The position numbers and the translations under genes were made by a program. The notes under the pieces are model-generated. The model was not told where the DNA came from. It made no database searches and saw only the letters and a list, made by a program, of their open reading frames with translations. DNA of 49,313 nucleotides from Chitinophaga pinensis (GTDB lineage: Bacteria > Bacteroidota > Bacteroidia > SXHM01): NCBI GenBank assembly GCA_945861685.1, contig CAMAVO010000003.1:1-49313 (forward strand), in the 5' to 3' direction. Of this stretch, positions 3,012 to 44,904 are shown one piece after another; position 1 is the stretch's first letter, and each line of letters opens with the position of its first letter.

Positions 3012-3105
3012 GACCACCACTGACAAGGAAGGCATCATCGCTGACAAGGTGAGCAGAACCATCACTAATAAAGCTAGAAAGTATCTATACCCTTACCCTT
3101 ATCAG
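3012..3105. repeat. Short remnant of a 21-bp-period repeat with one inverted copy
   Basis: CTGACAAGG at 3020 and 3041 (21 bp apart), degenerate CTAATAAAG at 3065, inverted CCTTATCAG at 3097-3105. Confidence 0.5.
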
Positions 3106-3120
3106 AGCTACATTCATCGC

Positions 3121-3636
3121 TTAGTCTTTAAACCAACCCGAATACATCACATAGTTTTCGGCAATGCCTTTAATAAGAGTTGCGGTTTGTTCGGCATTTA
3201 AGGTCTTTACCTTTTTGGCGGGAACACCGGCATAGATGCAGCCGCTCTCCACATGTGTGTTTTCCAGAACCACCGCACCGGCAGCTATGATGCTGTTTTC
3301 TTCCACCACCACATTGTCCATAACAATGGCTCCCATGCCAATCAGCACATTGTCTTTTACCGTGCAGCCATGCACCAGCGCATTGTGCCCGATGGATACA
3401 TTATTGCCGATGGTAGTTGCTGCTTTTTTATAAGTGCAATGGATTACAGCACCGTCCTGCACATTCACCCGATTGCCCATGCGGATGTAATGCACATCAC
3501 CGCGCACCACGGCATTAAACCACACACTGCATTCGTCACCCATTACCACATCGCCTACCACGGTTGCGTTTTCGGCTAAGTAGCAGTTGTTGCCAAACTT
3601 GGGTTCAATTCCTTTTACAGGTTTTATAAGTGCCAT
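3121..3636 (-). CDS. Gamma-carbonic anhydrase-like (YrdA/PaaY family) hexapeptide-repeat protein
   Basis: VWFNAVVRGDV, NVQDGAVIH, IGHNALVHGC and GVPAK motifs. Confidence 0.92.
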   Translation of the reverse strand: MALIKPVKGIEPKFGNNCYLAENATVVGDVVMGDECSVWFNAVVRGDVHYIRMGNRVNVQDGAVIHCTYKKAATTIGNNVSIGHNALVHGCTVKDNVLIGMGAIVMDNVVVEENSIIAAGAVVLENTHVESGCIYAGVPAKKVKTLNAEQTATLIKGIAENYVMYSGWFKD

Positions 3637-3668
3637 AATTTCTTTCTAATATTCAGTTGTTGTGTTAG

Positions 3669-3716
3669 CCCTCTGCTCCCCTCTCCCTCGGAGAGGGGAG
3701 CAGAGGGTGAGGCTTT
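3669..3716. repeat. REP-like palindrome, CCCTCTCC/GGAGAGGG...GGGTGAGG type
   Basis: Perfect 18-bp stem (3669-3686 with 3690-3707), 3-nt loop, ending GGGTGAGGCTTT. A related copy is at 48247. Confidence 0.8.
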
Positions 3717-5067
3717 AAGTAAAAATCCAGCCGTCATTCAAATAGCAGTTCAGCATAAAAACATTCCACACAATATTAAAGAGCAGCACCACAGCAAAAA
3801 CAATTTTGCTCAACACATTTTTATACGGCTGAAAATAAAACAGGAAAACAAAATTCAGAAATACCAGCAACAATCCCATGCTGTAAAATTCCCACTCACC
3901 CAAAAAAGAAGAAAATGAATAGGTGAATAAAGCGGGTAAAAATGTAAACACAAACAGTGCAAGTTTTTGGTTTGATTCTAATTTTAAGAACCGTTCAAAG
4001 CTCAAGACACAGAAAGCAAAAAAGAAAGGCGTACATAATACATAACGAAACAACCCGTGCAGATTTCCACCCTGAAAAAGCAGAATAAAAAAAGTTGCGC
4101 CCAGCAAATAAAATACAGAGAAATTAAAAAGCTCATCGCGTTTGTTCAGTGTTGCGTTTTTCACAAAAACATTTTTAACCAGCAGGTAAATCATGAGCGG
4201 CACCAGCAGAAAAAGCGAAGCAATGTTTAAACCAAAACCTTCCTGCGACCAGTCGCGCAGGTTATGCGGCACCTGCAGTTTGTGATCCCAGTATTTGTTT
4301 ACATGGTAGAAATGGAAAAACTGCGAAGGGTCGTAATAATATTGAACCGCGCTAATTATTAATGTGCCAATTATCATTGGCAAAACATTCAGCACAATCT
4401 TTTTCGGTAGTGAATAATATTCTTTGGTGGTAACAAACATGTAAACATCTTTGCTCACAACGGCAGCGCCTATTATCAGTGCAGCAGGGCGTGTCATAGA
4501 ACACAACAACATACCTGTAAAGTAAAGCAGGTATTTCTCTTTTATCATGCCGTAAAACGCCAGACACATCGTAAAAAAGAAAACCGATTCGGTATAAGGA
4601 ATAAAAAAACAAACAGCGCCTGGAAGCGAGAGCAGAGTGATGTACTTCAGCAGATTTTCTTTGTTGTCCAACGAAATATCAAGCGCTTTAAAAAGCAATA
4701 TCAACCCTGAAATAAACAGCAGAAAATTTAAAATGCTGATACCGATGTTGGATAATCCTGTTACCTCCCAAATAAGCGGAAACAAAGGGAAGAATGCGAA
4801 AATATAATCGCCAACTTTGTTTTGGTCGTAATGATTATCACGGATAAAACGATAATGAACGGCATCCCAACGGATGAGGTTTTCGTTGGTTACTTTTTCA
4901 AACGCTTTGTCGGGAGCAGTTATTTCACCATTCACCTTTTGTATCTGGCGAATGTGTTTGCCGATTGTTTTGTCGTAAACCGTTTTATTCTGAAAAAGAA
5001 TATTTGCACCCCAGGCAAGAAGCAGCACCAAAACTCCGAGGGCAAAAGGTTTCAGAAATGAACCCAT
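3715..5067 (-). CDS. Polytopic GT-C glycosyltransferase (PIG-V-like mannosyltransferase family)
   Basis: Many TM segments; RWDAVHY, AFFPLFP and YTES motifs; next to GT2 genes. Confidence 0.72.
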   Translation of the reverse strand: MGSFLKPFALGVLVLLLAWGANILFQNKTVYDKTIGKHIRQIQKVNGEITAPDKAFEKVTNENLIRWDAVHYRFIRDNHYDQNKVGDYIFAFFPLFPLIWEVTGLSNIGISILNFLLFISGLILLFKALDISLDNKENLLKYITLLSLPGAVCFFIPYTESVFFFTMCLAFYGMIKEKYLLYFTGMLLCSMTRPAALIIGAAVVSKDVYMFVTTKEYYSLPKKIVLNVLPMIIGTLIISAVQYYYDPSQFFHFYHVNKYWDHKLQVPHNLRDWSQEGFGLNIASLFLLVPLMIYLLVKNVFVKNATLNKRDELFNFSVFYLLGATFFILLFQGGNLHGLFRYVLCTPFFFAFCVLSFERFLKLESNQKLALFVFTFLPALFTYSFSSFLGEWEFYSMGLLLVFLNFVFLFYFQPYKNVLSKIVFAVVLLFNIVWNVFMLNCYLNDGWIFT

Positions 5068-5070
5068 TAT

Positions 5071-5796
5071 TTATTTTGCGTTGAATAACCCATATTTCAG
5101 AATGCAATAGATAGCGCGGAAGCCATCTTTCCAGCCTATTTTTTTCCCTTCTTCGTAGGTGCGGCCGTAGTAGGAAATTCCCACTTCATAAATCCGGATG
5201 TTTTTTATGCGTGCAATTTTTGCAGTTACCTCCGGCTCAAATCCAAAACGGTTCTCCACTAAGTTAAGGCTCTTTACCATTTTGCTGTCAAACAGTTTGT
5301 AGCACGTTTCCATGTCGGTAAGGTTAAGGTTGGTGAACATATTAGACATGAATGTCAGAATATTATTTCCGATGGAATGCCAGAAAAATAAAATGCGGTG
5401 AGGATTTCCACCCATAAAGCGTGAGCCGTAAACCACATCAGCAAAGCCATCAACTATAGGTTGCAACAGCAAATTAAACTCCTGAGGATTGTATTCCAAA
5501 TCGGCATCCTGCACAATCAAATAATCTCCGGTTGCAAGCTGAATTCCTTTGTGAATGGCAGCGCCTTTTCCCCGATTAATTTCCTGATTATATAGTTGAA
5601 TATTTAGTTCAGGATGTGCCGTACTATATTTCTCCAATGCAGTTTTTGTGTCGTCTGTTGAGCAATCATTCACTATAATTATTTCTTTTTCAAAACCACC
5701 AATCAGTTGCACGGCATTTACTTTATCCAAAATAAGATGAATAGTTCGCGCTTCATTGTATGCTGGAATAATAATGGAAAGTTTTTTAGCGCACAT
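5071..5796 (-). CDS. GT2 glycosyltransferase (polyprenol-phosphate sugar synthase, DPM1-like)
   Basis: [33 protein letters not shown] and RFGFEPE motifs. Confidence 0.9.
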
Positions 5797-5800
5797 CAGC

Positions 5801-12262: not shown

Positions 12263-12272
12263 GGTTTGTTTC

Positions 12273-12334
12273 GTCACCCTGAACTTGTTTCAGTGTCTTT
12301 AATCACCAAGATGTTGAAACAAGTTCAGCATGAC
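12273..12334. repeat. REP-like inverted repeat (GTCA..CTGAACTTGTTTCA type) in the PBP 5' region
   Basis: 20-bp arms at 12273-12292 and 12315-12334 with 2 mismatches. Confidence 0.8.
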
Positions 12335-12346
12335 GGCAATTTTGCC

Positions 12347-12354
12347 CAAAAGTA
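12347..12354 (-). promoter_or_regulatory. -7 element (TACTTTTG) for the PBP-scoA transcript
   Basis: TAnnTTTG match upstream of the PBP start. Confidence 0.55.
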
Positions 12355-12424
12355 ATACAAATCTCATGAAGGGATTTGGGTATTAAACGAAAAGACTAAC
12401 AGGAAATTGTTGGAAGTGCAAATT

Positions 12425-12870
12425 GTTTTTTCTCTTCCGGAGTTTTCGCTGCCTCTTGCAGCGGTGTTGCTCCCACTTGCAAAGGTTTTGTTGTCTCCTG
12501 CAGGACTGTTGCTGCCTCTTGCAGAGCTTTTGTTGTCTCTTGCAAGACTGTTGTTCCTTCTTGCAGAGGTGTGTGCGTCTCTTGCAGGACTTTTGCTCCC
12601 TCTTGCGGAGGTGTTGCTGCCTCTTGCAGAGGTGTGAGTGCCTCTTGCAAGACTGTTGTTGCCTCTTGCAGCGGTGTTGCTCCCTCTTGCGGTACTTACA
12701 GCATTAATTGCATAGCAATTGGTGTTAATTGCGGCACAGTGAGTGTTAATTGTAGAGATGTTGCTCCCTCTTGCAGGACTGTGAGCGCCTCTTGCAGCGC
12801 TGTGAGTATGGGTTTATTGGGTAATAATGTCAGTTTATGGGGTGTTTTGTGCCTAATTGGCAGAAAACTG
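12425..12870. repeat. Degenerate 21-bp tandem array, about 18 units with core CTCTTGCA plus a degenerate tail
   Basis: Core recurs every 21 bp from 12432 to 12789 without phase slip. Three TAATTG variants at 12705, 12726 and 12747. A 24-bp exact repeat occurs at 12451 and 12661. Confidence 0.92.
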
Positions 12871-12909
12871 GGTAAGAACCTACCGCTGCACGGCAATTTT
12901 GTGGTATTG

Positions 12910-20645: not shown

Positions 20646-20669
20646 GCAACTTCTCAAAACTGAATAAAG

Positions 20670-20696
20670 AAACCCGCTTCATGCGGGTTTTTTTTT
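20670..20696 (+). terminator. Intrinsic terminator of the PpiD-like gene
   Basis: AAACCCGC-ttcat-GCGGGTTT followed by a T run. Confidence 0.85.
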
Positions 20697-20728
20697 GCCT
20701 TTTCAATACAAAATGTTGGTTGGGTGTC

Positions 20729-20954
20729 ACACAGACGCGTGTGTTGGGTCAAAAAACATTATTTAGTATCACACAGGCACGTGTGTTGCCTTAAATACCC
20801 TTATTGAATGCAACACAGGCTCGTGTGTCGGACAAAATAGCATGTTTGTATATAACACAGAAACCTGTGTTTGACAGAATAGCAGTATTTAATATAACAC
20901 ACGTGCCTGTGTGATACTAAAGAGGCTTCTTGATAGTAACACAGATGCCTGTGT
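20729..20954. repeat. Array of six 16-bp palindromes ACACA-N6-TGTGT at an exact 42-bp period with 26-bp dissimilar spacers
   Basis: Units start at 20729, 20771, 20813, 20855, 20897 and 20939. Perfect 26-bp inverted repeat at 20762-20787 / 20896-20921. Confidence 0.93.
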
Positions 20955-21014
20955 TACATCCAATAGAATTCAGCATCTAAACTTCCGTATCCGGATAACA
21001 CTCAATTGTCTTCT

Positions 21015-33316: not shown

Positions 33317-34270
33317 TTATTTTTCTTTGCTTGTTGGAGTCTCCACCGGGCTTTCAGCCGGTACATCATCGTTGTGACGGATTTTTGCAAAGCGAGCGCC
33401 TATCATTACTTCATGGCTTCCGCTGCTGTAGTTCTTGAGGCTCGACATCGGGAAGTCGTAAGCATAACCCAAAATAATGTTTTTGCCGATGTTGAAGCCT
33501 GCCATTACTGAAACGGCATCTTTGATTCGGAAAGCACTTCCTGCCCAAACCACATCGCGGTAACCGATTTTAAGACCAAGGTCAATCTGCATAGGAACCG
33601 GAGTAACGTATTTTAAAAGGAAGGAAGGTTGCACTGTCCAGTTGTCGCCCAGGTTAAAGGTATAGCCTCCCATGATGAGCAGGTGGCGGGCAAGGCGGCT
33701 TTGTGCATCAGATACGTTGTCAAAGAATTTTAACTTGTTGCCAATCAACTGCGGCATTGAAACTCCGAAGTAGAACTTTTTGGTGTAAAGTTGAATTCCG
33801 AAGGTTGCATCAGGAGCAATAACACTCATTACTCCGTTGCTCATTGCCGGGTCGTTACCTTCTTTCAAGGTAACTTTTGAGCCATCGATTTTAAATTGCA
33901 TTACACCAAATCCAAGACCGAAAGAGAGTTTCAGTTTTTGTGAAAGTTTTACATGATAGGCATAAGAAAGGTATGCCCCCGTGCGACTGGTAGGCCCGGT
34001 AACATCGCTATACACAGCGCCTCCAAAGCCCATGTTGTGCTTGCGGTGCGGACCGTGCACACTCAGCACATACGTGCGGGGAGCATCGGTAACACCCACC
34101 CACTGGTAGCGGTTGTTCGATTTTACTTCGTAGAAATCCTCGGTGCCTGATACGGCAGGGTTGAGGATATAATTGTTCAGCATGTATTGTGCATACTGTG
34201 GCACTTGCTGGGCTTTAAGGCCTGAAACAGTGCAAACAATTACTGTAAGAAGGGTGTATAGCTTTTTCAT
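33317..34270 (-). CDS. PorP/SprF-family T9SS beta-barrel protein
   Basis: QQ.PQYAQYM.N...LNPA..G, RYQWVG...AP, GYAYD and SSGSHEV motifs; directly downstream of a type B CTD protein. Confidence 0.93.
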   Translation of the reverse strand: MKKLYTLLTVIVCTVSGLKAQQVPQYAQYMLNNYILNPAVSGTEDFYEVKSNNRYQWVGVTDAPRTYVLSVHGPHRKHNMGFGGAVYSDVTGPTSRTGAYLSYAYHVKLSQKLKLSFGLGFGVMQFKIDGSKVTLKEGNDPAMSNGVMSVIAPDATFGIQLYTKKFYFGVSMPQLIGNKLKFFDNVSDAQSRLARHLLIMGGYTFNLGDNWTVQPSFLLKYVTPVPMQIDLGLKIGYRDVVWAGSAFRIKDAVSVMAGFNIGKNIILGYAYDFPMSSLKNYSSGSHEVMIGARFAKIRHNDDVPAESPVETPTSKEK

Positions 34271-34308
34271 AGTTCTGGATTTTTATTTTTTACCACTATT
34301 ATTTTTTT

Positions 34309-34367
34309 ACCACTAAGAGCACTGAGCTCACCAAGTAATTCTAAGTGTTCTAAGTGCACTTAGTGGT
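34309..34367. repeat. REP-like degenerate inverted repeat (ACCACTAAG...CTTAGTGGT) built from 9-bp subunits
   Basis: Perfect 9-bp outer arms; internal CACTAAG/CACTGAG versus CTAAGTG/CTTAGTG subrepeats. Confidence 0.65.
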
Positions 34368-34376
34368 TAATTTTTT

Positions 34377-37300
34377 TTATCTCGCTATTGTTATAGGTCC
34401 GGTATAAGGTTCAGTTGTTCCATTGTGCAGGTCTATTACATAATAGTATGTTCCTACAGGCAGGTCTTTGCCTTTGTATCTTCCATCCCAAGCTGTTCCG
34501 TAGCCTTTAGAATAGAAGAGTTCTTGTCCCCAACGGTTGTAAACCATTACCACTGCTTCCGGGAAATTATTGATAAAGTCAATAATCCAGGTATCATTAA
34601 TACCGTCATCATTTGGTGTTATACCATCAGGGAAAACAATTCCGGGAGATACTTCAATGGTTAACGAATCAACCGCAGAGCATCCGTTTTCATCTGTTCC
34701 GGTTACAAAGTAGATAGTAGTTATTGTTGGTGATGCAATCGGGTTGTAGATGTTTGCATTATCCAACCCATCGCTTGGCGACCATGAATAAGTTCCGTTG
34801 GTTCCAGCACCGGCAGCTTCTAATTGCACCGTAGTTCCTGAAAGAATTTCAGCACCAGCACCCGCATCAATTACAGGAAGAGGGTTAACGGTAACAGTTA
34901 CTGTGTCATAATCCACGCAACTGAAGTTGGTAACCTGAACAATATAGGTTGTAGTAGTAGTGATGGTTGCAACCGGATTGTCGATGTTGTTGTAATTTAA
35001 TCCTGAAGCAGGAGTCCACAGATAACCGCTTCCGCCTGTTGCCTGCAACTGAACCTGATCACCAATACAAATTGTAATATCGGGTCCTGCGTTTGCATCA
35101 ATTACTATCTGCTCAACCACTGTTACAATGAGTGTTTTAGAGCAACCTGTGTTGTCGGTTACGGTTACGGTATAAACTCCGGGAAGCAGGTTAGTCAGGT
35201 CTTCGGTAGTTGCTCCGTTATCCCAATCGTAGGTATATCCCGGAACACCACCTGATACAGAAAGGTCAATTGCTCCGTTGTCAGTATTAGTACATGTTGG
35301 TGCAGTTACAGAAGCAGAGACTACAATAATCGGAGGCTCGCTGATGGTAACAGTTGCTGTGGTATCACAACCATTCGCATCGGTTACAGTTACTGTGTAA
35401 GTACCTGCACAAAGACCGGTAGCAGTTGCAGTTGTTTGTCCGCCCGGAACCCAGATGTAAGAGTATACAGGAGTTCCACCTGCAGGTGTTACTGTAGCTG
35501 TTCCATCGCAATTGCCTCCGCAGCTTGCGTCTACACCTGTTGCAGCTGCAGTAAGCAATGCAGGTTCGGTAATGGTAATTGTTGAAATTGAAACGCAGTT
35601 TGCAGCATCGGTTACGGTTACTGTATAAGTGCCCGGGCAAAGATTGGTTGCCATAGCAGAATTTTGTCCGTTAGCCCATACAAAGCTATATGGCTCAACA
35701 CCGCCTGTTGCAATTGCAGTTGCCGTTCCATCGCACTGGCCAAAGCAACTTACGTTGTTGAACAATGGAATTGCAGTTGCCAAAGCATTCTGGTCGCTGA
35801 TGATGACTGTGGAAGTAGTATTACAACCGATTGCATCAGTAATAACAACACTGTATGTTCCAATACAAAGATTAATTGCGGTGCTATCGGTTTGTCCGTT
35901 ATTCCACAGATAAGAGTATGGAGGAACACCACCCAATACGCTAACTATTGCATACGCATCGCAATTTCCAGCGCAAAGTATTTCACTGAAATCAGTTATA
36001 GAAGAAGTTAGGATTGGTGGTTCAAGAATGATAACGTTGACAGAAATGGTACAACCGTTTCCATCGGTAACTAGCACTGAATAATTTCCTGCGCAAAGAG
36101 CTACAGCGGTGCTGTCGGTTTGTCCGTCACTCCATGCATATTGGTAAGGAAGTGTTCCACCACCAACGTTAGCAGTTGCTGTTCCATCACACACACCACC
36201 GCAACTTGCATTGGTTGTAGTCGGGTAAAGTGTAAGGATAGGAGGCTCAGTGATTACAATGGTTTGTGTTGTGTCGCAACCGTTGGCATCTGTAACGGTT
36301 ACCGTGTAGGTTCCTGCACACAGATTAATTGCAGTTTCGGTAGTTTGACCTGATGGAGACCACAAGTAAGAGTATGCCGGTGTTCCACCGTTTGCTGTTG
36401 CAGTAGCAGAACCATCGCATAGTCCACCGCAGCTTACATTATTAATTACTGTAGCATCAAATACAAGTAAAGTTGGTTCTGTTACAATTACTGTATCCTG
36501 ACCTGTGCAACCATTAGCATCGGTTACTAACAAGTAGTATTCGCCCGGACAAAGGCTATCAACAAAGTCTATTGTTTCCAGTCCTGTAGTGTTCAGCCAC
36601 TGATACGTGTAAGGAGCAGTTCCGCCCGCAGGGGTTGCAGTTACATCTGCATTGCAGAAACCAAAGCAGGTTACGTTATTCACTGCAAATGTCATAGTAA
36701 CAGGTGCCGGTTCAGTAACGTTGATAACAGCTGATTGCACGCAACCAAGAGAGTCGGTAACGGTAACAGTATAAATACCTGCACACAATGCAGTAGCGGT
36801 ATCACCTGTTTGAGAAGTTGGATTCCATGAATAGGTGTATCCTGTAACTAACGAAGGAGTACCACCTGTAGCAACTACCCAAGCCGAAGCATCGCAAACA
36901 CCGTTGCAACTTGCAGGCAGCATGTCTGTTGTAAGTGTGATTTCGGTAGGCTCACCAATTAATACTGAAGTTCCCTGAACGCATCCGTTGGCATCCGTAA
37001 CCTGAACAATGTATGTTCCAGCGCAAAGACTGTCTGCCGTTGCATCGGTTTGGTTACCGGGAGTCCATAAATAGGTGTAAGCACCGGTGCCGCCTGTTGC
37101 GGTAACTGTTGCTGTTCCATCGCAAACGCTAAAGCACAAAGCATCTGTCCATGAAGTTGACAAAACAATAGGTGTAGGTTCTGTAACCGGAATGTCAGTC
37201 CATGTAGAAGTGCAACCGTTAGCATCGGTAACAACTACACTATACGTTCCGGGGCAAAGTGTTACTGCAGTTGCAGTAGTTTGTCCATCGTTCCACAGGT

Positions 37301-40300
37301 AAGAATATGGTAACACTCCGCCTGAAGGAATGATAGTAGTTGTGCCATCGCATGCTCCGTTGCAGGTTATGTTAGAAACAACAGGAAGACTGAGCGCTAA
37401 CAAAGAAGGTTCGGTCACAATCACTATATCGGTTGCAATGCAACTAGAAGCATCGGTAACCTGAACAGTATAAACTCCCGCACAAAGATTAGTAGCAGTA
37501 TCAGTGGTTTGTCCATCGCTCCACAGGTAAGTGAAAGGGGCAGTGCCAAGCGTTACAGTAACGGTAGTAGCACCATCACAACTTCCACTGCAGGTTGCAG
37601 GCGTTGATGAAACTGAAATGCTTGAGTTAGGAACGTTGTTTACAGGGAATGCCAGTGATTCAACACATCCGTTGGCATCTGTAATGTCAACCGTGTAAAC
37701 TCCGGCACAAAGTCCAGTTATTGAATTTGTTGTTTCACCACCACCCCACAAGTATATGTAAGGCGCTTGCCCGTCTGAAGGAGCAAGTGTTATGCTTCCA
37801 TTGCAAACTCCGCAATCAGCAGTAACAACAACTTCGTTTGCCTGAATTTGTAAAGGCTCAGCAATAGTAACTGTTTCTGTAAGCGTACAGTTGTTGGTAT
37901 CGGAAACCTGCACAAAATAAGTTCCTGCGCATAATCCTGAAACTGAAGTAGTAGTTGCTCCTCCCGGTACCCACAGGTAATCGTAAGGTGCAATTCCTCC
38001 TGTTACCCCTGTAACCGTAGCAGAACCATCACATGAACCAAAGCAACTTGCATCGGCTGTAGTAACTGTAACTGAAGTTGGGCCACCTGTATTGCTGATA
38101 GCAACTGCAAAGCTTCCTGTGCAACCGTTAGCATCCGTAACAAAAACAGGATAAACACCTGCGCACAGGTTAGTTGCTGTTGCAGTAGTAGCGCCTGTTC
38201 CCCATAAGTAGGTGTAAGGTGCAGTTCCACCGATAACTGATAAAGTAGCTGTTCCATCACACTGTCCGCAAGTAGCAGGAGTTGAAGTGTAAGTCATATC
38301 TACTATTCCCGGCTCAACGATAGTTACTGAGGTGGTAGCTGTACAACCATTAGCATCGGTAACAGTTACTGAGTATGTTCCCGGAATAAGATTGCTCAAA
38401 TCCTGAGTAGTTTGCCCGTTATCCCACAGGTAAGTGTAACCCGGAGTTCCGCCTGAAACAGTCAGGTCAACTGAGCCGTCTGTGTTTCCGTTGCACGAAA
38501 TATCGGTAACGTTGGTTGTTAGTGAAATAGCAGTTGGCTCAGAAACGTTAACGTTTGCTGTTTGAGTACAACCATTGCCATCTGTAACAGTAACTGTATA
38601 GAAGCCTGCGCAGATATTGCTTAATGAAGTTGTTGTTTCACCGCCCGGAGACCATAAGTAAGTATAACCAGGAGTTCCGCCCGAAACCGAAATACTTGCC
38701 GAAGCATCACAAACGCCATTGCAACTTGCAGGTGTTGTAGTTGGTGTAATTACAATTGGTGTAGGTTCAGCAAGGATGATTACAGCTACTTGCTGGCAAC
38801 CGTTTGCATCGGTAACAGTAATGGTGTAGGTGCCTGCACAAAGGTTGTTGATGGAGTTGGTGGTTTCACCACCAGGTGTCCATAGGTAAATGTATGGTGC
38901 TGACCCGCCTGAAATGCTTGTGTTTATGAAGCCATCACAACTTCCGTTGCAGGTTGGTTCGCTTGAAGTAACATCGATTACAATAGCCGAGTTACTTGGA
39001 ACAGCAACTGTTGCAATTGTTTCGCAACCGTTTGCATCCGTAATAGTGCAGGTCATAATACCCAAGCAAAGATTGATAGCAGTTTGTGTTGTTTGTCCGT
39101 CACTCCACAGATAGGTGTATGGAACAAAACCACCGCTTGGGGTAACTGTGGCAGTTCCGTTACACTGACCGTTACAAAGAACAGGAGTAGCACTTGAAGT
39201 ATAAGTAATAGGAGCAGGCTCGTTGATTGTAACCGAAGCAGTATCGTCACAACCGTTAAAGTCGGTTACCACAATTTGAAAGGTTCCGGCACAAAGATTA
39301 TTTACGGTGTTGGTTGCAGGTCCTGAAGGCAGCCAGAAATAAGTGAAAGGGCTTGTTCCTCCAACCTGTGTAGCTATTGCCGTTCCGTCACAAACGCCAT
39401 TGCAGCTTGCATTGGTTCCTGTTGCAGAAGCAACCAGGTCACCCGGTTCAATAATAGTTACCGTTGCTGAAGCTGTGCAACCGCTTGCATCCGTTACTGC
39501 AACGTTGTAAATATTAGGACACAAACCTGTTGCAGTTTGTGTTGTTTGTCCACCCGGTGTCCATAGGTAAGTATAGCCACCGCTTCCACCGCTTGCGCTA
39601 ACTGTTGCTGAACCATTACATAATCCGAAACAACTTACGTTACTGCTTGACGAAATATTTACTGAAAGTGCTGAAAGCGGTTGAGTGATTACAACATTAT
39701 TGATTGCTGTTGTACACCCGTTTGCGTCAGTAATAGCCACTGAATAAGTACCCGGAGCAAGACCTGTGCGGTCTTGTGTGGTTTGTCCGCTTGGTGTCCA
39801 TAAATAGGTGAAAGGACCAGTGCCACCGCTTACTGTTACATCAATAGCTCCGTTGTTTGCTCCGAAACAGTTGATATTAGTATGTGTTTCTGATGCAGAA
39901 AGTACAGCGGGTTGAGTAATAGTAACCGATAAATTTGAATTACATCCGTTGATGTCTGTAACTGTTACCGTATAGGTATTAGGTGCAAGAGCGGTGCGGT
40001 CTTCTGTAGTTTGTCCGCTTGGTGCCCATAGATAAGCATAAGGAGCAGTTCCACCTGAAACAGTGATATTAATAGCTCCGTTGTTAAGCCCGTTACAGGT
40101 TACGTTTGTATGTGTTTCGGTAATAGTAATTGAAGTTGGCTGAGCAATGGTATAAGAGTAAACGCCACCGCAACCATTGGCATCAGAGAACGTCAGGATA
40201 TAGGTTCCTAATGCAAGTCCGCTGATATCCTGTGTGGTTGCTCCGGTAGACCATGAATAGGTATAGATTGGAGTTCCACCGCTTACAGTAAGGTCAATAG

Positions 40301-43300
40301 AACCTGTTCCGCTTCCGTTACAAGGAATGTTGGTTACGTTAGCAGAAAGTGTAATGGTTGTTGGTTCGGTAACGGTATAAATTGCAAACGAAGTACAGCC
40401 TGTTGTTACATCGGTAACACTTACTGAATATGAGCCTGCAGGAATAGAAGATAAATCCTGAGTAGTTGCTCCGTTACTCCATGTATAGGTATAGTTTCCT
40501 GAACCACCTGAAACGGTGAGGTTAACAGCACCGTTGCTTCCGCCTGCACAATTAATATTGGTGATTGCAACAGAAAGTGTAAATGCTGAGGTTTCGCTTA
40601 CTGTGAAGAATGAGTTAGCTGTGCAACCGTTTGCATCGGTAACAGTTACTCCGTATATAGCACCCGGTAATCCGCTAATGTCTTGTGTTGTTGCTCCGTT
40701 TGTCCATAAGTAAGTATAAGGTGCAGTTCCACCGCTTACACTTAAATCAACGGCACCTGTGCTGGTGCTGCAACTTGAATTGGTTATGCTGGATGTAAGC
40801 GTAATTCCGCTTCCTGCAGTAACTGTGAAGCTTGTAAGACCCGAGCATCCAGTTGTAATATCTGTTACCGTTACAGTATAAGCTCCGGGAGCAAGTGCTG
40901 TGCGGTCTTGTGTAGTTTGTCCGCCTGGTGACCATAAATAAGAGTAGTTGCCTGAACCACCGGAAACGGTAACATCAATTGCACCGTTGGTTGCCGCACA
41001 ATTCGTAGCAGGAGTTACAACTCCTGAAACGTTAGGCGCTCCTGTTTCTGATACATTGATTGCTGTTGATTGAACGCAACCCAGGGTAATATCTGTAACG
41101 GTTACAGTATAAATTCCGGGAGCAAGACCTGTTAAATCCTGAGTGGTTAATGAGCCCGGAGTCCATGAATAGGTATAGTTTCCTGATCCACCTGTAATGG
41201 TTATATCTATTGATCCCGTGTTTGCATTGCATTGTGAGTTTACAACACTTACTATATTAATGGTAAGATTTGAAACCTCAGTGATGGTAACATTAAGGCT
41301 TGATGAGCAACCGTTGGCATCTGTAACGGTAACATTGTAAAATCCTGCTGAAAGCCCGCTGATGTCTTGTGTTGTTGCACCGTTGCTCCATCCATAAGTA
41401 TAAGGTGCAGTTCCACCTGAAACGCTTAGGTTAACAGAACCATTGGCTCCGCTTGCACAGCTTACATTTACATGTGTTTCGGTTAAAGCGATTGCAGCTG
41501 GTTGTGTAATTGTAAATCCGGCACCTGCTGTGCAACCGTTGGCATCTGTAATAGTTACCGAGTTGGTGCCTACACCTAGTCCGCTGATGTCTTGTGTGGT
41601 TTGTCCACCGGGTGACCATAAATAGGTATAAGGAGGAGTTGCCCCACCAAGTGTAAGGTCTATACTTCCGTTGCTGCCGCCATTGCAGGTTACATGAATA
41701 ATATCTACAAATCCATTATATCCAGCAGGCTGTGTAATGGTAAATGATAAAAATGAAGAACAAAGACTTACTGCATCTGTAACTGAAACGGTATAAGTTC
41801 CGGGTGAAAGACTGCTGATATCCTGTGTTGTTGCTCCGTTTGACCACGAATAGGTATATGAGCCTGAACCGCCTGAAACGGTAAGGTTAACACTTCCGTT
41901 GCCGGCACCTGCGCAGGTTATATCCGTTTCAACCGAGGTAACTGTTATGCCATTTGAACCGCTTACAGGGAATACGCTGTTAGCTGTGCAACCATTAGCA
42001 TCTGTAACGGTAACTGAATATATTCCGGCACCAATGCTGCTGATGTCTTGTGTTGTTACCCCGTTGCTCCACAGATAAGTTAAAGGAGCAGTTCCACCCG
42101 TAACAGTTAAATCAACTGCACCGCTGTTGCTGCTGCAATTAGAGTTGGTAACAGAACCAGAAAGCGTCATTGCATTATTATAGGATACAGCAAATGTTGC
42201 TATCGCAATACAACCTGAAGTGTTATCAGTAACGGTAACGGTATAGCTGCCTACTGCAAGATTGATGCGATCTTGTGTAATTTGTCCGCTTGGCGCCCAT
42301 AAATAAGAATAACTTCCTGAACCGCCTGTAACGGTAATATCTATTGCACCATTAGTAGCGTTGCAATTTGTTGCATTAGTTACTGTACCTGTAATATTAG
42401 GATTGCCTGAGTTCTGAACATTATTTGCCAATGTTTGCGTGCAACCCAATGTTACATCGGTAACAGTAACGGTATAAACTGCGGCATTAAGACCGCTGAT
42501 GTCTTCTGTGGTTGCACCTCCAGGTGACCATAAATACGTGTAGTTTCCCGAACCGCCCGCAACAGTTAAATTAACTGCTCCGTCACTTGCGCCACATGTT
42601 GCATCAGTAATAAGTGATGAAACGCTGAGGTTCGATAATTGTGTAATGGTTGCGCTTCGTGTAGAGGTACAACCGTTGGCATCGGTAATGTTTACTGAAT
42701 AAAAGCCGGGTGCCAAGCCTGATAAATCCTGAGTGGTTTGTGCAGTGTTCCAAAGGTAGGTGTACGGTGATGTTCCGCCTGAAACAGTTATATCAATAGA
42801 GCCGGTGTTTGAGCCGGCACAGTTTACATTCACATGTGTTTCGGAACTGATAAGAATTGTTGGTTGCGAAACCACGATTGCCGGTGGACTAAGTGTGCAA
42901 GTGTTTGCATCGGTAATAACTACTGAGTAACTTCCAGCTGCAAGTCCGCTTATATCTTGTGTTGTTGCTCCGTTAGACCATAAATAGGTGTAAGGTGCTG
43001 TTCCTCCACTTACTGTTAAATCAATGGCTCCGTTCAATTGCCCGAAACACAAAACGTTGGTAACAACTGAACTTTGGCTCATTCCGGCAGGTTCTGTAAC
43101 AGTAACGGTTCCGTTGGTTGTGCAACCAAGTGCATCGGTAACTACTACGTTGTGAACACCTGCTGACAAGCCTGTTGCTGTTTGTGTTGTTTGATTGCTT
43201 GGTGACCAGAGGTAGGTATATCCAGGAGTTCCACCTGAAGGTGTTGCTGTTGCAGTTCCGTTTGCCCCACCGTTGCACGAAACAGGTGTGAACGACATTG

Positions 43301-43691
43301 TAGTAGTTACGCCTGCTGCCGGTTGTGTTATGGTTATGGTAGTTGAAATTTGTGTAGTTCCGCAACCACTATTGTCTGATTCAAATACCACAATGTAATT
43401 ACCTGCCGGTAAGCCGGTAAAGGTGTGTGTTAATATATTGTCAGTGAATGTCAGGAAGATAGAAGGTACCTGCACCACGCCAAAGTCATAAGGTGCAACG
43501 CCTCCGTTACCTACAATGGTTATGCTTCCGTCACTCCCGCCAAAGCAGGTTACGGGGGTCATTGTTACAGATGTAAAGCTCAACGGACATTGGGCCTGTG
43601 CTGTGTTACTTGAGAAGGTGGTAAGGAATACCGCAAGCACCAGGGCTGCACTTTTCAAAATAGTATTCATAGGGCGTATAATTTTTTCCAT
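34377..43691 (-). CDS. Giant SprB-like surface adhesin with tens of Cys-containing ~75-aa SprB repeats and a T9SS type B CTD
   Basis: Repeats of C....G.I...V.GG..PY.Y.W......L..G.Y.V.VTD.NGC; C-terminal ITPNDDGIND.W...YNRWG...WDG...GTYYY; cognate porP/sprF downstream. Start may be 43670. Confidence 0.92.
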   Translation of the reverse strand: MEKIIRPMNTILKSAALVLAVFLTTFSSNTAQAQCPLSFTSVTMTPVTCFGGSDGSITIVGNGGVAPYDFGVVQVPSIFLTFTDNILTHTFTGLPAGNYIVVFESDNSGCGTTQISTTITITQPAAGVTTTMSFTPVSCNGGANGTATATPSGGTPGYTYLWSPSNQTTQTATGLSAGVHNVVVTDALGCTTNGTVTVTEPAGMSQSSVVTNVLCFGQLNGAIDLTVSGGTAPYTYLWSNGATTQDISGLAAGSYSVVITDANTCTLSPPAIVVSQPTILISSETHVNVNCAGSNTGSIDITVSGGTSPYTYLWNTAQTTQDLSGLAPGFYSVNITDANGCTSTRSATITQLSNLSVSSLITDATCGASDGAVNLTVAGGSGNYTYLWSPGGATTEDISGLNAAVYTVTVTDVTLGCTQTLANNVQNSGNPNITGTVTNATNCNATNGAIDITVTGGSGSYSYLWAPSGQITQDRINLAVGSYTVTVTDNTSGCIAIATFAVSYNNAMTLSGSVTNSNCSSNSGAVDLTVTGGTAPLTYLWSNGVTTQDISSIGAGIYSVTVTDANGCTANSVFPVSGSNGITVTSVETDITCAGAGNGSVNLTVSGGSGSYTYSWSNGATTQDISSLSPGTYTVSVTDAVSLCSSFLSFTITQPAGYNGFVDIIHVTCNGGSNGSIDLTLGGATPPYTYLWSPGGQTTQDISGLGVGTNSVTITDANGCTAGAGFTITQPAAIALTETHVNVSCASGANGSVNLSVSGGTAPYTYGWSNGATTQDISGLSAGFYNVTVTDANGCSSSLNVTITEVSNLTINIVSVVNSQCNANTGSIDITITGGSGNYTYSWTPGSLTTQDLTGLAPGIYTVTVTDITLGCVQSTAINVSETGAPNVSGVVTPATNCAATNGAIDVTVSGGSGNYSYLWSPGGQTTQDRTALAPGAYTVTVTDITTGCSGLTSFTVTAGSGITLTSSITNSSCSTSTGAVDLSVSGGTAPYTYLWTNGATTQDISGLPGAIYGVTVTDANGCTANSFFTVSETSAFTLSVAITNINCAGGSNGAVNLTVSGGSGNYTYTWSNGATTQDLSSIPAGSYSVSVTDVTTGCTSFAIYTVTEPTTITLSANVTNIPCNGSGTGSIDLTVSGGTPIYTYSWSTGATTQDISGLALGTYILTFSDANGCGGVYSYTIAQPTSITITETHTNVTCNGLNNGAINITVSGGTAPYAYLWAPSGQTTEDRTALAPNTYTVTVTDINGCNSNLSVTITQPAVLSASETHTNINCFGANNGAIDVTVSGGTGPFTYLWTPSGQTTQDRTGLAPGTYSVAITDANGCTTAINNVVITQPLSALSVNISSSSNVSCFGLCNGSATVSASGGSGGYTYLWTPGGQTTQTATGLCPNIYNVAVTDASGCTASATVTIIEPGDLVASATGTNASCNGVCDGTAIATQVGGTSPFTYFWLPSGPATNTVNNLCAGTFQIVVTDFNGCDDTASVTINEPAPITYTSSATPVLCNGQCNGTATVTPSGGFVPYTYLWSDGQTTQTAINLCLGIMTCTITDANGCETIATVAVPSNSAIVIDVTSSEPTCNGSCDGFINTSISGGSAPYIYLWTPGGETTNSINNLCAGTYTITVTDANGCQQVAVIILAEPTPIVITPTTTPASCNGVCDASASISVSGGTPGYTYLWSPGGETTTSLSNICAGFYTVTVTDGNGCTQTANVNVSEPTAISLTTNVTDISCNGNTDGSVDLTVSGGTPGYTYLWDNGQTTQDLSNLIPGTYSVTVTDANGCTATTSVTIVEPGIVDMTYTSTPATCGQCDGTATLSVIGGTAPYTYLWGTGATTATATNLCAGVYPVFVTDANGCTGSFAVAISNTGGPTSVTVTTADASCFGSCDGSATVTGVTGGIAPYDYLWVPGGATTTSVSGLCAGTYFVQVSDTNNCTLTETVTIAEPLQIQANEVVVTADCGVCNGSITLAPSDGQAPYIYLWGGGETTNSITGLCAGVYTVDITDANGCVESLAFPVNNVPNSSISVSSTPATCSGSCDGATTVTVTLGTAPFTYLWSDGQTTDTATNLCAGVYTVQVTDASSCIATDIVIVTEPSLLALSLPVVSNITCNGACDGTTTIIPSGGVLPYSYLWNDGQTTATAVTLCPGTYSVVVTDANGCTSTWTDIPVTEPTPIVLSTSWTDALCFSVCDGTATVTATGGTGAYTYLWTPGNQTDATADSLCAGTYIVQVTDANGCVQGTSVLIGEPTEITLTTDMLPASCNGVCDASAWVVATGGTPSLVTGYTYSWNPTSQTGDTATALCAGIYTVTVTDSLGCVQSAVINVTEPAPVTMTFAVNNVTCFGFCNADVTATPAGGTAPYTYQWLNTTGLETIDFVDSLCPGEYYLLVTDANGCTGQDTVIVTEPTLLVFDATVINNVSCGGLCDGSATATANGGTPAYSYLWSPSGQTTETAINLCAGTYTVTVTDANGCDTTQTIVITEPPILTLYPTTTNASCGGVCDGTATANVGGGTLPYQYAWSDGQTDSTAVALCAGNYSVLVTDGNGCTISVNVIILEPPILTSSITDFSEILCAGNCDAYAIVSVLGGVPPYSYLWNNGQTDSTAINLCIGTYSVVITDAIGCNTTSTVIISDQNALATAIPLFNNVSCFGQCDGTATAIATGGVEPYSFVWANGQNSAMATNLCPGTYTVTVTDAANCVSISTITITEPALLTAAATGVDASCGGNCDGTATVTPAGGTPVYSYIWVPGGQTTATATGLCAGTYTVTVTDANGCDTTATVTISEPPIIVVSASVTAPTCTNTDNGAIDLSVSGGVPGYTYDWDNGATTEDLTNLLPGVYTVTVTDNTGCSKTLIVTVVEQIVIDANAGPDITICIGDQVQLQATGGSGYLWTPASGLNYNNIDNPVATITTTTTYIVQVTNFSCVDYDTVTVTVNPLPVIDAGAGAEILSGTTVQLEAAGAGTNGTYSWSPSDGLDNANIYNPIASPTITTIYFVTGTDENGCSAVDSLTIEVSPGIVFPDGITPNDDGINDTWIIDFINNFPEAVVMVYNRWGQELFYSKGYGTAWDGRYKGKDLPVGTYYYVIDLHNGTTEPYTGPITIAR

Positions 43692-43795
43692 TTGTTTCGG
43701 GTTGGAACTATTGTAAAATCAGGATAAAAATACATCTTTCCTGATAGAATGAAAATTATAGATTGTATTTATTTTTGAACGAGGGTTTAACGCAA

Positions 43796-43803
43796 CAAAT
43801 ATA
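43796..43803 (-). promoter_or_regulatory. -7 element (TATATTTG) for the adhesin gene
   Basis: TAnnTTTG in the AT-rich upstream gap. Confidence 0.5.
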
Positions 43804-43949
43804 AAATAGTTGTCGTTTGTCGAAAATTCTTTTTCCCTTGCAGGCAAAGGATTTTAGAAACATTTTGAAGAAAATTGTGTCCACCTGAGAATACAGGTTA
43901 CTAACAATTTTGGGTGTTAAAATAATATGAAAAAGTGAAAAAAACGTTT

Positions 43950-44615
43950 TCAGTAAATAATAAATAGCCCTTTTTCTTCGGGTTCGTTATAAAAAACCGA
44001 TTGTGCCGCACTGTTTACGGTTTTGCAAAATTCATAAAGGTTGTTCATTTTTTCAACGCGCTGGCTGGAGTAGCGTATGCGCAGGTGTTTAAAATACTCC
44101 TGTTGGGTTTCTTTTTCCAGAATGGTTTGGGTTTTTGTGCCCAGGTTGGTTAGCAAAATGGCGGGCATTCCCACTGCAGCAAGTTCGGCACTATAATCTT
44201 CAGCAATTTTTTTCATTACCAGTAGCCACATGTATTGGTTAAGCTGGGTGGCACGTGCTTTTTTGCGTTCGGTAAATCCAAATTCTTCGGCTTTTCGTTT
44301 TTTAGCCGGAAATGCTTTTTTTACATAATGTTCCAATTCGCTGGCTATTGTAAATCCTGCTTTTTTCGCTTGCTCAAGTTCTTCTGAATGGTGTTGCAGT
44401 TGATCCATTACCGTTTCATCGGTTTCGGTGGCTTCACATTCGTTGATAGATGATAGCCAATTGCCGGCATAGGCGGCATTAAGGTCGGGGTCAAAGGCGC
44501 TGAACCGGGCAAGGTAATTTAAAAAGTGCGTGTGCAGCGTTTCGCTTTTTTGAATAAGCAGAGTATCTTCCATTGAAAAATCGCGTTCGCGTTCTTTTGG
44601 TTGTGTTGTTGCCAT
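43950..44615 (-). CDS. Hypothetical 221-aa cytoplasmic protein, probably all-alpha
   Basis: ATG-started ORF with amphipathic helical patterning; no signal peptide, TM or motif I can name. Confidence 0.8.
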   Translation of the reverse strand: MATTQPKERERDFSMEDTLLIQKSETLHTHFLNYLARFSAFDPDLNAAYAGNWLSSINECEATETDETVMDQLQHHSEELEQAKKAGFTIASELEHYVKKAFPAKKRKAEEFGFTERKKARATQLNQYMWLLVMKKIAEDYSAELAAVGMPAILLTNLGTKTQTILEKETQQEYFKHLRIRYSSQRVEKMNNLYEFCKTVNSAAQSVFYNEPEEKGLFIIY

Positions 44616-44635
44616 GGTTTAGGTTTATTTTTAGG

Positions 44636-44904
44636 TTGTCCGCAAATATAATGCAATTGTCCGAAGATATTACTTAGTTGTCCGCTAAAATTATATAGTT
44701 GTCCGTAAAATTTACTTAGTTGTCTATTAAAATTACTTGATTGACCGCAAAAATGATAGTTATTATTTTTGCGGTCAGCTACGTTATCTTTGCGGACAAC
44801 ACAGAAATAATTGCGGACAACACAGAAGTAATTGCGGACAACACAGAAGTGATTGCTCCCACCCAAGTAAATAGAGCGGACAACACAGAAAATAGTGCGG
44901 ACAA
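44636..44904. repeat. Mirror-symmetric 21-bp-period array: six TTGTCCGC-type units, central hairpin, seven GCGGACAA-type positions
   Basis: Left cores at 44636, 44657, 44678, 44699, 44720, 44741. Right cores at 44771, 44792, 44813, 44834, (44855 degenerate), 44876, 44897. Central 13-bp stem TGACCGCAAAAAT/ATTTTTGCGGTCA. Confidence 0.93.

What the first reader, a model, noticed from the sequence alone, without database searches (positions are those of the whole stretch)
3012..44904. Recurrent class of helically phased (21n bp), often mirror-symmetric intergenic arrays with unrelated core motifs
Four intergenic tracts share geometry but not sequence: 3020 (CTGACAAGG, 21 bp), 12432 (CTCTTGCA, 21 bp), 20729 (ACACA-N6-TGTGT, 42 bp) and 44636 (TTGTCCGC, 21 bp). 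In the three long arrays phase is kept exactly while spacers diverge, which simple slippage explains poorly. Two clearly invert at a centre and a third has one inverted copy. Only the 44636 array has an adjacent orphan gene. Inference: a family of array-plus-helical-protein modules with orphan arrays left elsewhere, acting as multimeric DNA-binding scaffolds, ladder-like structured RNAs or non-autonomous mobile elements.
Basis: inference. Interest (0 to 1): 0.78.

Follow-up and report, generated by a model that had tools for sequence, protein, structure and literature searches.

The report
Phase-locked 21-bp arrays with partner protein
This freshwater Bacteroidota genome is dotted with non-coding repeat arrays that differ in sequence but almost always repeat every 21 bases (two turns of the DNA helix), and an uncharacterised helical protein family is nearly always preceded by one, which points to an undescribed DNA-array-plus-protein module.

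Summary
Three of the four tracts are real, exactly phased arrays: 12432-12789 (15 cores, all in one 21-bp phase), 20729-20939 (six palindromes at exact 42-bp steps) and 44636-44898 (two inverted 21-bp arms). The 3020 tract is only two copies.

They belong to a genome-wide class. Sixty-four loci repeat at lag 21/42, against 1-10 at control lags, and 52 of the 64 lie between genes. Open reading frames are no commoner than in column shuffles, so the arrays are not heptad-repeat coding.

The orphan 221-aa protein founds a Pfam-less helical family found in 30 of 299 genomes of the class. A 21n array lies directly upstream of 7 of 8 members here, 18 of 27 in relatives, 16 of 24 in five other families and 5 of 5 metagenome loci. 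The figure for other genes is 1.6%.

Turnover is fast. Congeners have empty sites at the PBP1a locus and unrelated arrays at the SurA locus.

Best reading (inferred, about 0.45): iteron-like cooperative binding platforms for dimers of this protein family, with orphan arrays seeded elsewhere. DNA binding is untested and the protein is acidic.

I found no published description in four literature searches.

The parts
3020..3049 (.). Two copies of CTGACAAGG, 21 bp apart, between convergent genes. At most a minimal or decayed member of the class, not an array.
   Evidence: only 2 hits with <=2 mismatches; no TRF row.
12411..12810 (-). Direct 21-bp array, about 19 units. Thirteen consecutive in-phase CTCTTGCA-type cores (12432-12684), then four 21-bp slots with CAATTAAC-type units (three recognisable), then 2 more cores. 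It lies upstream of PBP1a (10019-12277, -), inside a roughly 480-bp insertion that four congeners lack.
   Evidence: phase; core identity 0.93 vs 0.79, shuffle p<0.002; empty sites; homologous composite array on contig C72.
20666..20694 (+). Terminator-like hairpin of the SurA-like gene. The array starts just after it.
20720..20963 (.). Six 42-bp units, each with ACACA-N6-TGTGT, arranged as two inverted 109-nt halves. It lies between convergent genes (SurA-like 18546-20645 +, FtsW/RodA 21015-22280 -).
43950..44615 (-). 221-aa acidic all-helical protein (P0001), founding member of a Pfam-less family. A homodimer is predicted.
44616..44741 (-). Proximal arm: five to six 21-bp units with core TTGTCCG (+ strand), abutting the start codon of P0001. 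The last unit carries TATATTTG. I recall that this resembles the Bacteroidota -7 promoter box; no call tested it.
44742..44777 (.). Central perfect 13-bp palindrome (TGACCGCAAAAAT / ATTTTTGCGGTCA) with a 10-nt centre, forming the hinge between the arms.
   Evidence: Read; folds it as the apex of a long hairpin.
44786..44912 (-). Distal arm: six 21-bp units in the opposite orientation (core GCGGACAA on + strand). One odd unit at about 44850-44870 carries the core type (GGGAGCAAT) used by the orthologous array of a congener.
33317..43691 (-). Context: a 3104-aa SprB-repeat adhesin with CHU_C type IX secretion signal, and a PorP/SprF gene, directly downstream of P0001.

Best explanation
Shown. 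The three long tracts are members of a lineage-wide class of non-coding minisatellite-like arrays. Their unit length is locked to 21 bp or a multiple, that is, two turns of B-DNA, while the unit sequence differs from array to array. The class is tied to an uncharacterised helical protein family of about 215 aa, sometimes with a C-terminal CarboxypepD_reg-like beta-sandwich. Most family genes are directly preceded by their own array, each paralogue with its own core motif. Arrays turn over quickly between species.

Inferred. The arrays work like iterons or plasmid centromere repeats. Each unit, or each dyad unit, would be a site for a dimer of the family protein. The 21-bp spacing puts all sites on one face of the helix, so that dimers could bind cooperatively and build a nucleoprotein filament. 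At the family genes this filament would cover the gene's own promoter region and so allow autoregulation. In the window the proximal arm ends 20 nt before the ATG. Orphan arrays such as 12432 and 20729 would be extra platforms, seeded by amplification of a single site or by copying of a whole array. They would be read in trans by a family member or by another factor. Unequal exchange between units in register expands them in blocks of 21n. Selection on the short core keeps the phase and lets the spacers drift.
For: Class and period. TRF on the genome finds 92 of 271 arrays with period 21n. The 7-mer lag spectrum peaks at 21, 42, 63, 84, 105 and 126. There are 64 loci at lag 21/42 against 1-10 at control lags.

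Non-coding. Only 27 of 92 of the 21n arrays lie in long ORFs, against 67 of 82 for other 3n periods. Open frames number 44 observed against 39.2 in column shuffles, and 23 of 48 arrays have stops in all six frames.

Core under constraint. Conservation clusters in an 8-bp core (p<0.01) in 13 of 37 arrays, including 12411-12717. The 12270-15416 stretch, array included, is gap-free in a strain about 6% diverged, and 20240-21100 is gap-free in another.

Link to the protein. An array lies upstream of 7 of 8 family genes here, against 38 of 2359 others. The counts elsewhere are 18 of 27, 16 of 24 and 5 of 5 upstream, against 3 of 27, 1 of 25 and 0 of 6 downstream (one search gave 18 of 25 with a 520-nt window). 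In four tandem long-short gene pairs the array sits between the two genes.

Motif follows protein. Paralogues 92% identical (C50, C122) share the core GCTTCCCCCTGCT. Overlap of recurrent 7-mers falls from 0.23 at >=80% identity to 0 below 45%. A 55%-identical metagenome homologue keeps the TTGTCCG core and the two-arm layout. C135 and a 52%-identical protein in another GTDB family share a 42-bp two-palindrome unit. An orphan array on C221 has the same unit as the array beside family gene C25_2966.

Co-occurrence across genomes. Arrays per ~400 kb sampled are 16, 7, 6 and 4 in four carrier genomes. They are 0 per 400 kb and 0 per 120 kb in two genomes where no family member was found.

Dimer. 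The homodimer model scores ipSAE 0.70 against a best control of 0.00. That mark was reached by 20 of 30 solved homodimers and 1 of 23 single chains. The runs agree in >=63% of contacts and partner pLDDT is >=88. Invariant residues E111, F112, G113, W130, E169, Q172, E173, K176 and R181 lie in that interface. A basic patch at 100-125 sits beside it.
Against: No DNA-binding fold or family was detected. Pfam, NCBIfam and a PDB sequence search found nothing. Foldseek gave no hit with E<=0.001. The best VIA-align match was LemA at Z 10.7, rmsd 3.6 over 123 residues, which is within the noise for helical bundles.

The family is acidic, with median pI 5.18 over 51 members against 6.85 for 1218 background proteins.

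The genome has at least 45 distinct array cores but only 9 family members, so one-protein-one-array cannot cover the orphans. The 44 genes that face arrays are functionally diverse.

Nine of 64 arrays lie between convergent genes, where there is no promoter to regulate.

In 24 of 37 arrays, core conservation was not significantly clustered when read at period 21.

The genome co-occurrence rests on 7 sampled genomes, of which four carriers are one genus. Further sampling was not possible.

Phase-keeping by itself also follows from unequal exchange between repeats in register.
Confidence: 0.45

Rival explanations
1. Ruler-type mutational or selfish minisatellites. A lineage-specific process, unknown in bacteria, creates and expands duplications of exactly two helical turns in intergenic DNA whatever the sequence. 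The arrays have no function of their own. The family genes are either part of that process or simply sit in array-prone DNA.
For: Unit sequences are unrelated, with at least 45 cores. The PBP1a site is empty in four congeners, and the SurA site holds three unrelated arrays plus one empty site in the same genus. In another lake population one contig skips the 20645-21010 tract and another stops matching at 20645. Arrays occur in all intergenic contexts, including 9 convergent ones. The genes facing them are functionally random. Higher-order periods of 42, 63 and 84 are typical of block amplification. The single palindrome at the empty site of G005 resembles the unit amplified in the window.
Against: Clustered core conservation is seen in 13 of 37 arrays. 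Array length is stable in diverged strains. The array-gene link is kept across at least six GTDB families, with upstream and downstream sharply different. Core and layout are conserved with 52-55% identical proteins. No candidate enzyme was identified.
Confidence: 0.2
2. Cis-regulatory or architectural arrays bound by other factors, such as ordinary dimeric transcription factors or a nucleoid protein. The helical family would be their most regular regulated target, not the binder.
For: Many cores look like palindromic transcription-factor sites, for example GTAATTAC, CACATGTG, ACGATCGT and TTGCAA. Two arrays precede Cro/C1-type HTH genes. The family protein is acidic and has no recognisable DNA-binding domain.
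Against: No DNA-binding family is enriched among the 44 genes facing arrays; HTH_26 occurs in 2 of 44. Paralogue-specific cores beside each family gene would need a separate regulator for each. Arrays in convergent gaps have nothing to regulate.
Confidence: 0.2
3. Non-autonomous mobile elements: MITE-like array cassettes that insert into intergenic DNA.
For: The 12432 array sits in a roughly 480-bp insertion relative to four congeners. A second copy with the same composite order (CAATTAAC units, then TGCAAGAGG units) lies on C72. Other two-copy families exist: C2/C126, C25/C221 and C50/C122.
Against: Similarity between copies stops at the array, and no shared flanks, terminal inverted repeats or target duplications were found. 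Most arrays are single-copy. The protein has no hits in plasmid or phage collections, nor in PHROGs beyond chance level. The genome's genuine dispersed hairpin elements look quite different, with at least 37 near-identical copies.
Confidence: 0.07
4. Structured or repeat RNAs, either ladder-like hairpins or a long dsRNA formed by the mirror arrays.
For: The two mirror arrays fold far better than shuffles (z -8.6 and -8.9).
Against: That signal follows trivially from the inverted halves. The direct array has z -1.8. There is no Rfam match in the window. The 20729 array lies behind a terminator between convergent genes. Twenty-nine of 48 loci have no inverted component.
Confidence: 0.05
5. Fragments or small genes encoding heptad (7-residue) repeat proteins.
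For: The 21 nt period equals 7 codons. Some arrays are open in several frames; 12411-12717 has 5 of 6 frames open.
Against: Open frames number 44 observed against 39.2 expected from column shuffles, and 23 of 48 arrays have stops in all six frames. Conservation is a contiguous core, not a period-3 pattern. Arrays are not in frame with the family genes, whose extra length is C-terminal.
Confidence: 0.02

Closest known systems
Iterons of theta-type plasmid replicons with their Rep initiator (R6K, pPS10, P1, RK2). Recalled from general knowledge, not from a call.
   Same: Directly repeated units of about 19-22 bp in helical phase. An array sits upstream of, and overlaps the promoter of, the gene for the presumed binder. 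The motif is specific to each paralogue. Extra arrays occur away from the gene, as with P1 incA.
   Different: These arrays are chromosomal and many per genome: 64 loci and 9 genes. There is no winged-helix Rep fold or Pfam Rep family. No plasmid homologue was found. Arrays are often longer, at 10-23 units, and there is no sign of an origin.
Plasmid centromere arrays and their binding proteins (parC/ParR, sopC/SopB with 43-bp units each holding an inverted repeat, tubC/TubR). Recalled, not from a call.
   Same: Phased repeat arrays that assemble a multimeric nucleoprotein scaffold and lie upstream of the operon they regulate. The 42-bp palindrome-bearing units of the 20729, C135 and L206 arrays resemble the geometry of sopC.
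   Different: No ParA, ParM or TubZ-type NTPase lies beside the genes; the window neighbours are a TPR protein and a SprB adhesin. The protein is acidic and all-helical with no RHH or HTH detected. There are dozens of arrays per chromosome.
BrickBuilt minisatellite-MITE of Porphyromonas gingivalis (PMC4596501; I read the abstract and outline only).
   Same: An intergenic minisatellite in a Bacteroidota genome, present in multiple copies, with proposed promoter or regulatory effects.
   Different: BrickBuilt is one 23-nt unit sequence with leader and tail subunits and inverted-repeat ends, present 19 times. Here the unit is 21n and at least 45 unrelated unit sequences exist. No shared leader, tail or ends were found. 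A dedicated protein family is attached.
LytTR-type regulator sites: 9-bp direct repeats separated by 12 bp, giving a 21-bp period. Recalled, not tested.
   Same: A core of 8-9 bp plus a 12-13 bp spacer gives the same 21-bp register.
   Different: Known sites have two or three repeats, not 10-23. No LytTR gene showed up among the top families of the 44 genes facing arrays, though one search lists only the first 25 families.

Membership tests
Iteron plasmid replicon (Rep + iterons) | Tandem 17-22 bp direct repeats in helical phase next to the initiator gene | tested here: met
   21-bp phase is exact. The array abuts the gene start.
Iteron plasmid replicon (Rep + iterons) | Adjacent protein is a Rep/RepA-type winged-helix initiator | tested here: not met
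   No Pfam or NCBIfam family. The AF2 model is all-helical with pLDDT 91.6. No PDB sequence match.
Iteron plasmid replicon (Rep + iterons) | Located on a plasmid or secondary replicon | tested here: not met
   The contig carries housekeeping genes (SprA, PBP1a, FtsW, GcpE). There is no tblastn hit in 72,556 plasmids.
Partition centromere + centromere-binding protein | Partner NTPase gene (ParA/ParM/TubZ) in the same operon | tested here: not met
   The window neighbours are a TPR protein and a SprB-repeat adhesin. Neighbours of other members are type IX secretion cargo or unrelated genes.
Partition centromere + centromere-binding protein | Binder with RHH, HTH or winged-helix DNA-binding fold | tested here: inconclusive
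   No such fold appeared among the Foldseek or VIA-align matches. An absent match does not exclude it.
BrickBuilt-type minisatellite MITE | One unit sequence shared by all copies, with leader and tail and inverted-repeat ends | tested here: not met
   At least 45 different cores exist. BLAST of the arrays with 150-bp flanks finds no shared ends. The unit is 21 nt, not 23.
CRISPR array | Identical repeats of 23-47 bp separated by unrelated spacers of similar length | tested here: not met
   The period is 21 bp, and the 'spacers' are diverged copies of each other.
Heptad-repeat protein coding sequence | One frame kept open, with codon-type conservation | tested here: not met
   44 open frames observed against 39.2 in shuffles, and 23 of 48 arrays are closed in all frames.
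Described RNA families (Rfam 15) | Match at gathering score | tested here: not met
   0 matches in the window.
Array-plus-helical-protein module (the class proposed here) | 21n-phased non-coding array within 450 nt upstream of a member of the P0001 family | tested here: met
   The window locus: sum of 21/42/63 lag matches is 141, against 0.47 per other lag.

The most novel reading that the evidence does not exclude
Part of the class Bacteroidia runs a dedicated system in which a fast-evolving, multi-copy family of helical dimers and a measuring process of exactly two helical turns continuously write, expand and replace sequence-diverse 21-bp arrays in intergenic DNA. The resulting paralogue-specific nucleoprotein filaments would form a chromosome-wide addressing or insulating layer with no described counterpart in bacteria. 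The family protein would be both reader and driver of array growth.
Probability: 0.25. Interest if true: 0.92.

Novelty: new variant of a known kind. Interest (0 to 1): 0.8.

Why it matters
If the arrays are binding platforms for the helical family, this is a new DNA-binding protein family. It would also be a new way of organising bacterial intergenic DNA: about 7% of intergenic-like DNA here lies in such arrays.

The module would be highly evolvable, because each paralogue carries its own address. It recurs beside type IX secretion adhesin genes, including a SprB-like gliding adhesin.

If instead the arrays are products of a length-measuring mutational process, that process is unknown in bacteria.

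Either way, the arrays break assemblies. Several metagenome contigs end within 100 nt upstream of the gene. They are also invisible to gene callers, so they are systematically missed in MAG-based studies.

Tried and rejected
Function of the protein:
- Pfam, NCBIfam, PHROGs, PADLOC and a PDB sequence search gave nothing above chance.
- Foldseek pdb and VIA-align wide gave only generic helical bundles.
- ESM Atlas returned only unnamed Bacteroidota clusters. A DUF6261 lead at 0.88 was not borne out by Pfam at E<=1.
- tblastn against plasmids and phages found no match.

Distant family membership: hhalign of the family profile against the N-terminal parts of three array-adjacent CarboxypepD_reg proteins (C49, C1, C4) gave probability <=1.2%, so this is inconclusive.

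Curvature idea: A4/T4 tracts occur in 16 of 48 array consensus units against 48% of 7848 intergenic 21-mers, so there is no enrichment.

Expression: no RNA holder was listed among the 24 runs. All laid runs were DNA contigs.

Sigma-70 promoter scan: 0 sites in 20600-21050. The consensus does not apply to Bacteroidota anyway.

The co-occurrence therefore rests on 7 genomes.

The search for related loci with the wide alignment A3 failed because the alignment was too diverse. The narrower A1 gave only 10 metagenome loci, 5 of them with enough upstream DNA.

Literature: four full-text searches found no description of 21-bp phase-locked arrays in Bacteroidota. I saw only listings and abstracts, plus the abstract and outline of PMC4596501. 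Supplements were not seen.

Notes on this genome in the scan's own index: none.


Full report
**1. What is in the window**

TRF finds 21-bp arrays at 12448-12690 (11.6 copies) and 12767-12806. It finds 42-bp arrays over 20727-20901, and 21/42-bp arrays at 44635-44738 and 44790-44912. It finds nothing at 3020.

Core positions are exactly phased. Fifteen in-phase CTCTTGCA-type cores run from 12432 to 12789, all in one phase mod 21; the search also returned two 2-mismatch hits out of phase. Six ACACA-N6-TGTGT palindromes sit at exact 42-bp steps from 20729 to 20939. Five TTGTCCG and five CGGACAA cores sit at 21-bp steps, with one degenerate unit in each arm.

The 20729 tract is a 109-nt inverted repeat. 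The 44636 tract has two inverted arms around a perfect 13-bp palindrome. The 12432 array is purely direct. The 3020 tract is two copies only.

Flanking genes are ordinary. They include SprA, a hexapeptide transferase, PBP1a, a CotH/T9SS protein, a SurA-like PPIase, FtsW/RodA and a TPR protein. The 221-aa orphan is followed by a 3104-aa SprB-repeat adhesin and a PorP/SprF gene.

**2. A genome-wide class**

The window is a whole contig of a 3.04-Mb, 259-contig, 40% GC assembly. The organism occurs in freshwater-lake metagenomes.

- Of 271 non-overlapping TRF arrays, 92 have a period of 21n: 54 at 21, 18 at 42, 9 at 63 and 8 at 84.
- 7-mer self-matches peak at lags 21 to 126 in steps of 21, at two to three times the level of other multiples of three.
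- A lag-identity scan gives 64 loci (15 kb) at 21/42. Control lag pairs give 1 (20/40), 1 (22/44), 10, 8, 5 and 5.
- Unit sequences are unrelated, with at least 45 different cores. A few families have two copies.

**3. Not coding, not RNA, not curvature**

- Only 27 of 92 of the 21n arrays lie inside long ORFs, against 67 of 82 for other 3n periods.
- Whole-array open frames are no commoner than in column-shuffled arrays (44 against 39.2). Twenty-three of 48 arrays have stops in all six frames.
- The arrays upstream of family genes are not in frame with them.
- Rfam finds nothing. Only the mirror arrays fold well as RNA, which follows from their symmetry.
- A-tracts are not enriched.

**4. The protein family**

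P0001 has 21 homologues in the 5.8-billion-protein set. All are hypothetical proteins of Bacteroidia MAGs. There is no Pfam, NCBIfam, PDB, PHROG or PADLOC family for it.

The AF2 model is a confident helical bundle (pLDDT 91.6) with no informative fold match. A profile of the N-terminal domain converges on 9 members in this genome. It finds the family in 30 of 299 genomes of the class and 18 of 167 genera, often at 4 to 10 or more copies.

Long forms add a CarboxypepD_reg-like C-terminal domain. The family is acidic, with median pI 5.18.

A homodimer is predicted with ipSAE 0.70 against a best control of 0.00. That mark was reached by 20 of 30 solved homodimers and 1 of 23 single chains. Contact agreement is >=63% and partner pLDDT >=88. 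The interface is rich in invariant residues.

**5. The link between array and protein**

The criterion used was that the top 5-mer lag is 21, 42 or 63 and the summed count is >=19 within 450 nt.

| Set | Upstream positive | Downstream positive |
|---|---|---|
| Family genes in this genome | 7 of 8 | not tested |
| Other genes in this genome | 38 of 2359 | not tested |
| Loci in relatives | 18 of 27 | 3 of 27 |
| Loci in five genomes of five other GTDB families | 16 of 24 | 1 of 25 |
| Testable metagenome loci | 5 of 5 | 0 of 6 |

The contrast within this genome gives Fisher p 4e-12. Two further loci carry the same kind of array at period 22.

The negative loci in relatives include L016, L019, L020 and L023. 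These are the upstream genes of tandem long-short pairs, where the array lies between the two genes.

Each paralogue has its own core. Close paralogues share cores, and the overlap decays with protein divergence.

Some cores and layouts survive deep divergence. TTGTCCG in two arms is kept with a 55%-identical homologue. A 42-bp two-palindrome unit is shared with a 52%-identical protein in another family. The window's array, the G002 array and the G003 array share the piece CAATTACTTCTGT beside different cores. One window unit carries the G002-type core.

**6. Turnover**

Upstream of PBP1a (87-97% identical proteins), four congeners have a gap of about 95 nt with no array. The window has an insertion of about 480 bp.

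Downstream of the SurA-like gene the picture varies by genome:
- the window has the 42-bp palindrome array;
- G003 has an unrelated 21-bp array (CACCTCGCTTCA);
- G004 has an unrelated 42/84-bp mirror array;
- G005 has a single palindrome that resembles the window's unit;
- G002 has other DNA.

In lake populations both window arrays occur at unchanged length in strains 3-6% diverged. Another contig joins 20645 to 21010.

The 12432 array has a homologous composite copy on contig C72 with no shared flanks.

**7. Distribution of the arrays**

Arrays per ~400 kb sampled were 16 (G003), 7 (G005), 6 (G004) and 4 (G017, another family). All four genomes carry the family. Counts were 0 per 400 kb (G018) and 0 per 120 kb (G016), where no member was found.

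Context of the 64 loci: 27 co-directional, 10 divergent, 9 convergent, 12 genic and 6 at contig ends. The 44 genes that face arrays are functionally diverse. Apart from the family, only CarboxypepD_reg (3) and HTH_26 (2) recur.

**8. Reading**

The shown facts fit best with iteron-like, cooperatively bound platforms whose binder is the adjacent dimeric protein. Orphan arrays would be additional or newly seeded platforms.

The weak points are the acidic, domain-less protein, the excess of array types over family members, and the arrays in convergent gaps.

The main rivals are a period-measuring mutational process and binding by other factors.

**9. Earlier notes of this scan**

Four notes describe the same class in other Bacteroidota genomes: e1-1403824, e1-2811256, e1-1096491 and e1-1438824. 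One of them includes a roughly 220-aa gene family preceded by arrays.

I found them after reaching the same reading. They are AI notes, not independent evidence.

Four literature searches found no published description.

Noticed in passing
window 12272-12335: A hairpin element of about 65 bp (14-bp stem CTGAACTTGTTTCA / TGAAACAAGTTCAG) is inserted in the PBP1a leader and absent in congeners. BLAST finds matches on 37 other contigs of the genome. Lake contigs show very high depth and loose ends exactly at 12272 and 12335. It looks like a REP- or MITE-like dispersed element.
   Followed up: partly
G000 contig C72:4684-4718; also L015 and L061 (G002): A second dispersed hairpin element of about 35 bp (GTCATTGCGAGG...CGAAGCAATC) with about 20 copies in the genome. 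It is also seen upstream of a family gene in a congener.
   Followed up: no
window 15384-15418: GACAATT x5 heptamer repeat just upstream of the gene at 15509. Periods 7 and 14 are also over-represented genome-wide (22 and 21 TRF arrays). Lake contigs show many loose ends at 15387 and 15418. It may be akin to the heptamer direct repeats reported in other bacteria (PMC4679880; search listing and abstract only).
   Followed up: no
G000 contigs C175:963-1609, C191:4114-4611, C51:1-263, C26:20203-20579, C76:5399-5675: A separate repeat class with period 41/82/123 bp that contains the palindrome CCGTGGCC(A/G)CCACGG, up to 12 copies per array. C86:6969-7167 also has period 41 but a different unit without this palindrome. 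It is not part of the 21n class.
   Followed up: no
L006/L016 (G003), L005/L019 (G002), L013/L020 and L017/L023 (G017): Family genes often come as a tandem pair. The long form (helical domain plus beta-sandwich) comes first, then the array, then the short form. The window has only the short form, with a TPR gene in place of the long one.
   Followed up: partly
window 33317-43691; G000 C156:4731-5930; C135:1951-2859: Three family genes in this genome are followed by type IX secretion cargo genes: a SprB-repeat adhesin with PorP/SprF, and two proteins whose C-terminal ends look like Por_Secre_tail by eye. A possible functional tie to surface adhesins; no statistics were done.
   Followed up: partly
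L021 (G003:C6) and L202 (G211:C11): Two family genes carry upstream arrays with period 22/44/66 instead of 21. These are the only departures from the 21n rule seen beside family genes.
   Followed up: no
L215, L220, L221, L222 (metagenome contigs): Several metagenome contigs end within 100 nt upstream of the family gene. This is consistent with arrays breaking short-read assemblies, so counts of arrays in MAGs are probably underestimates.
   Followed up: no
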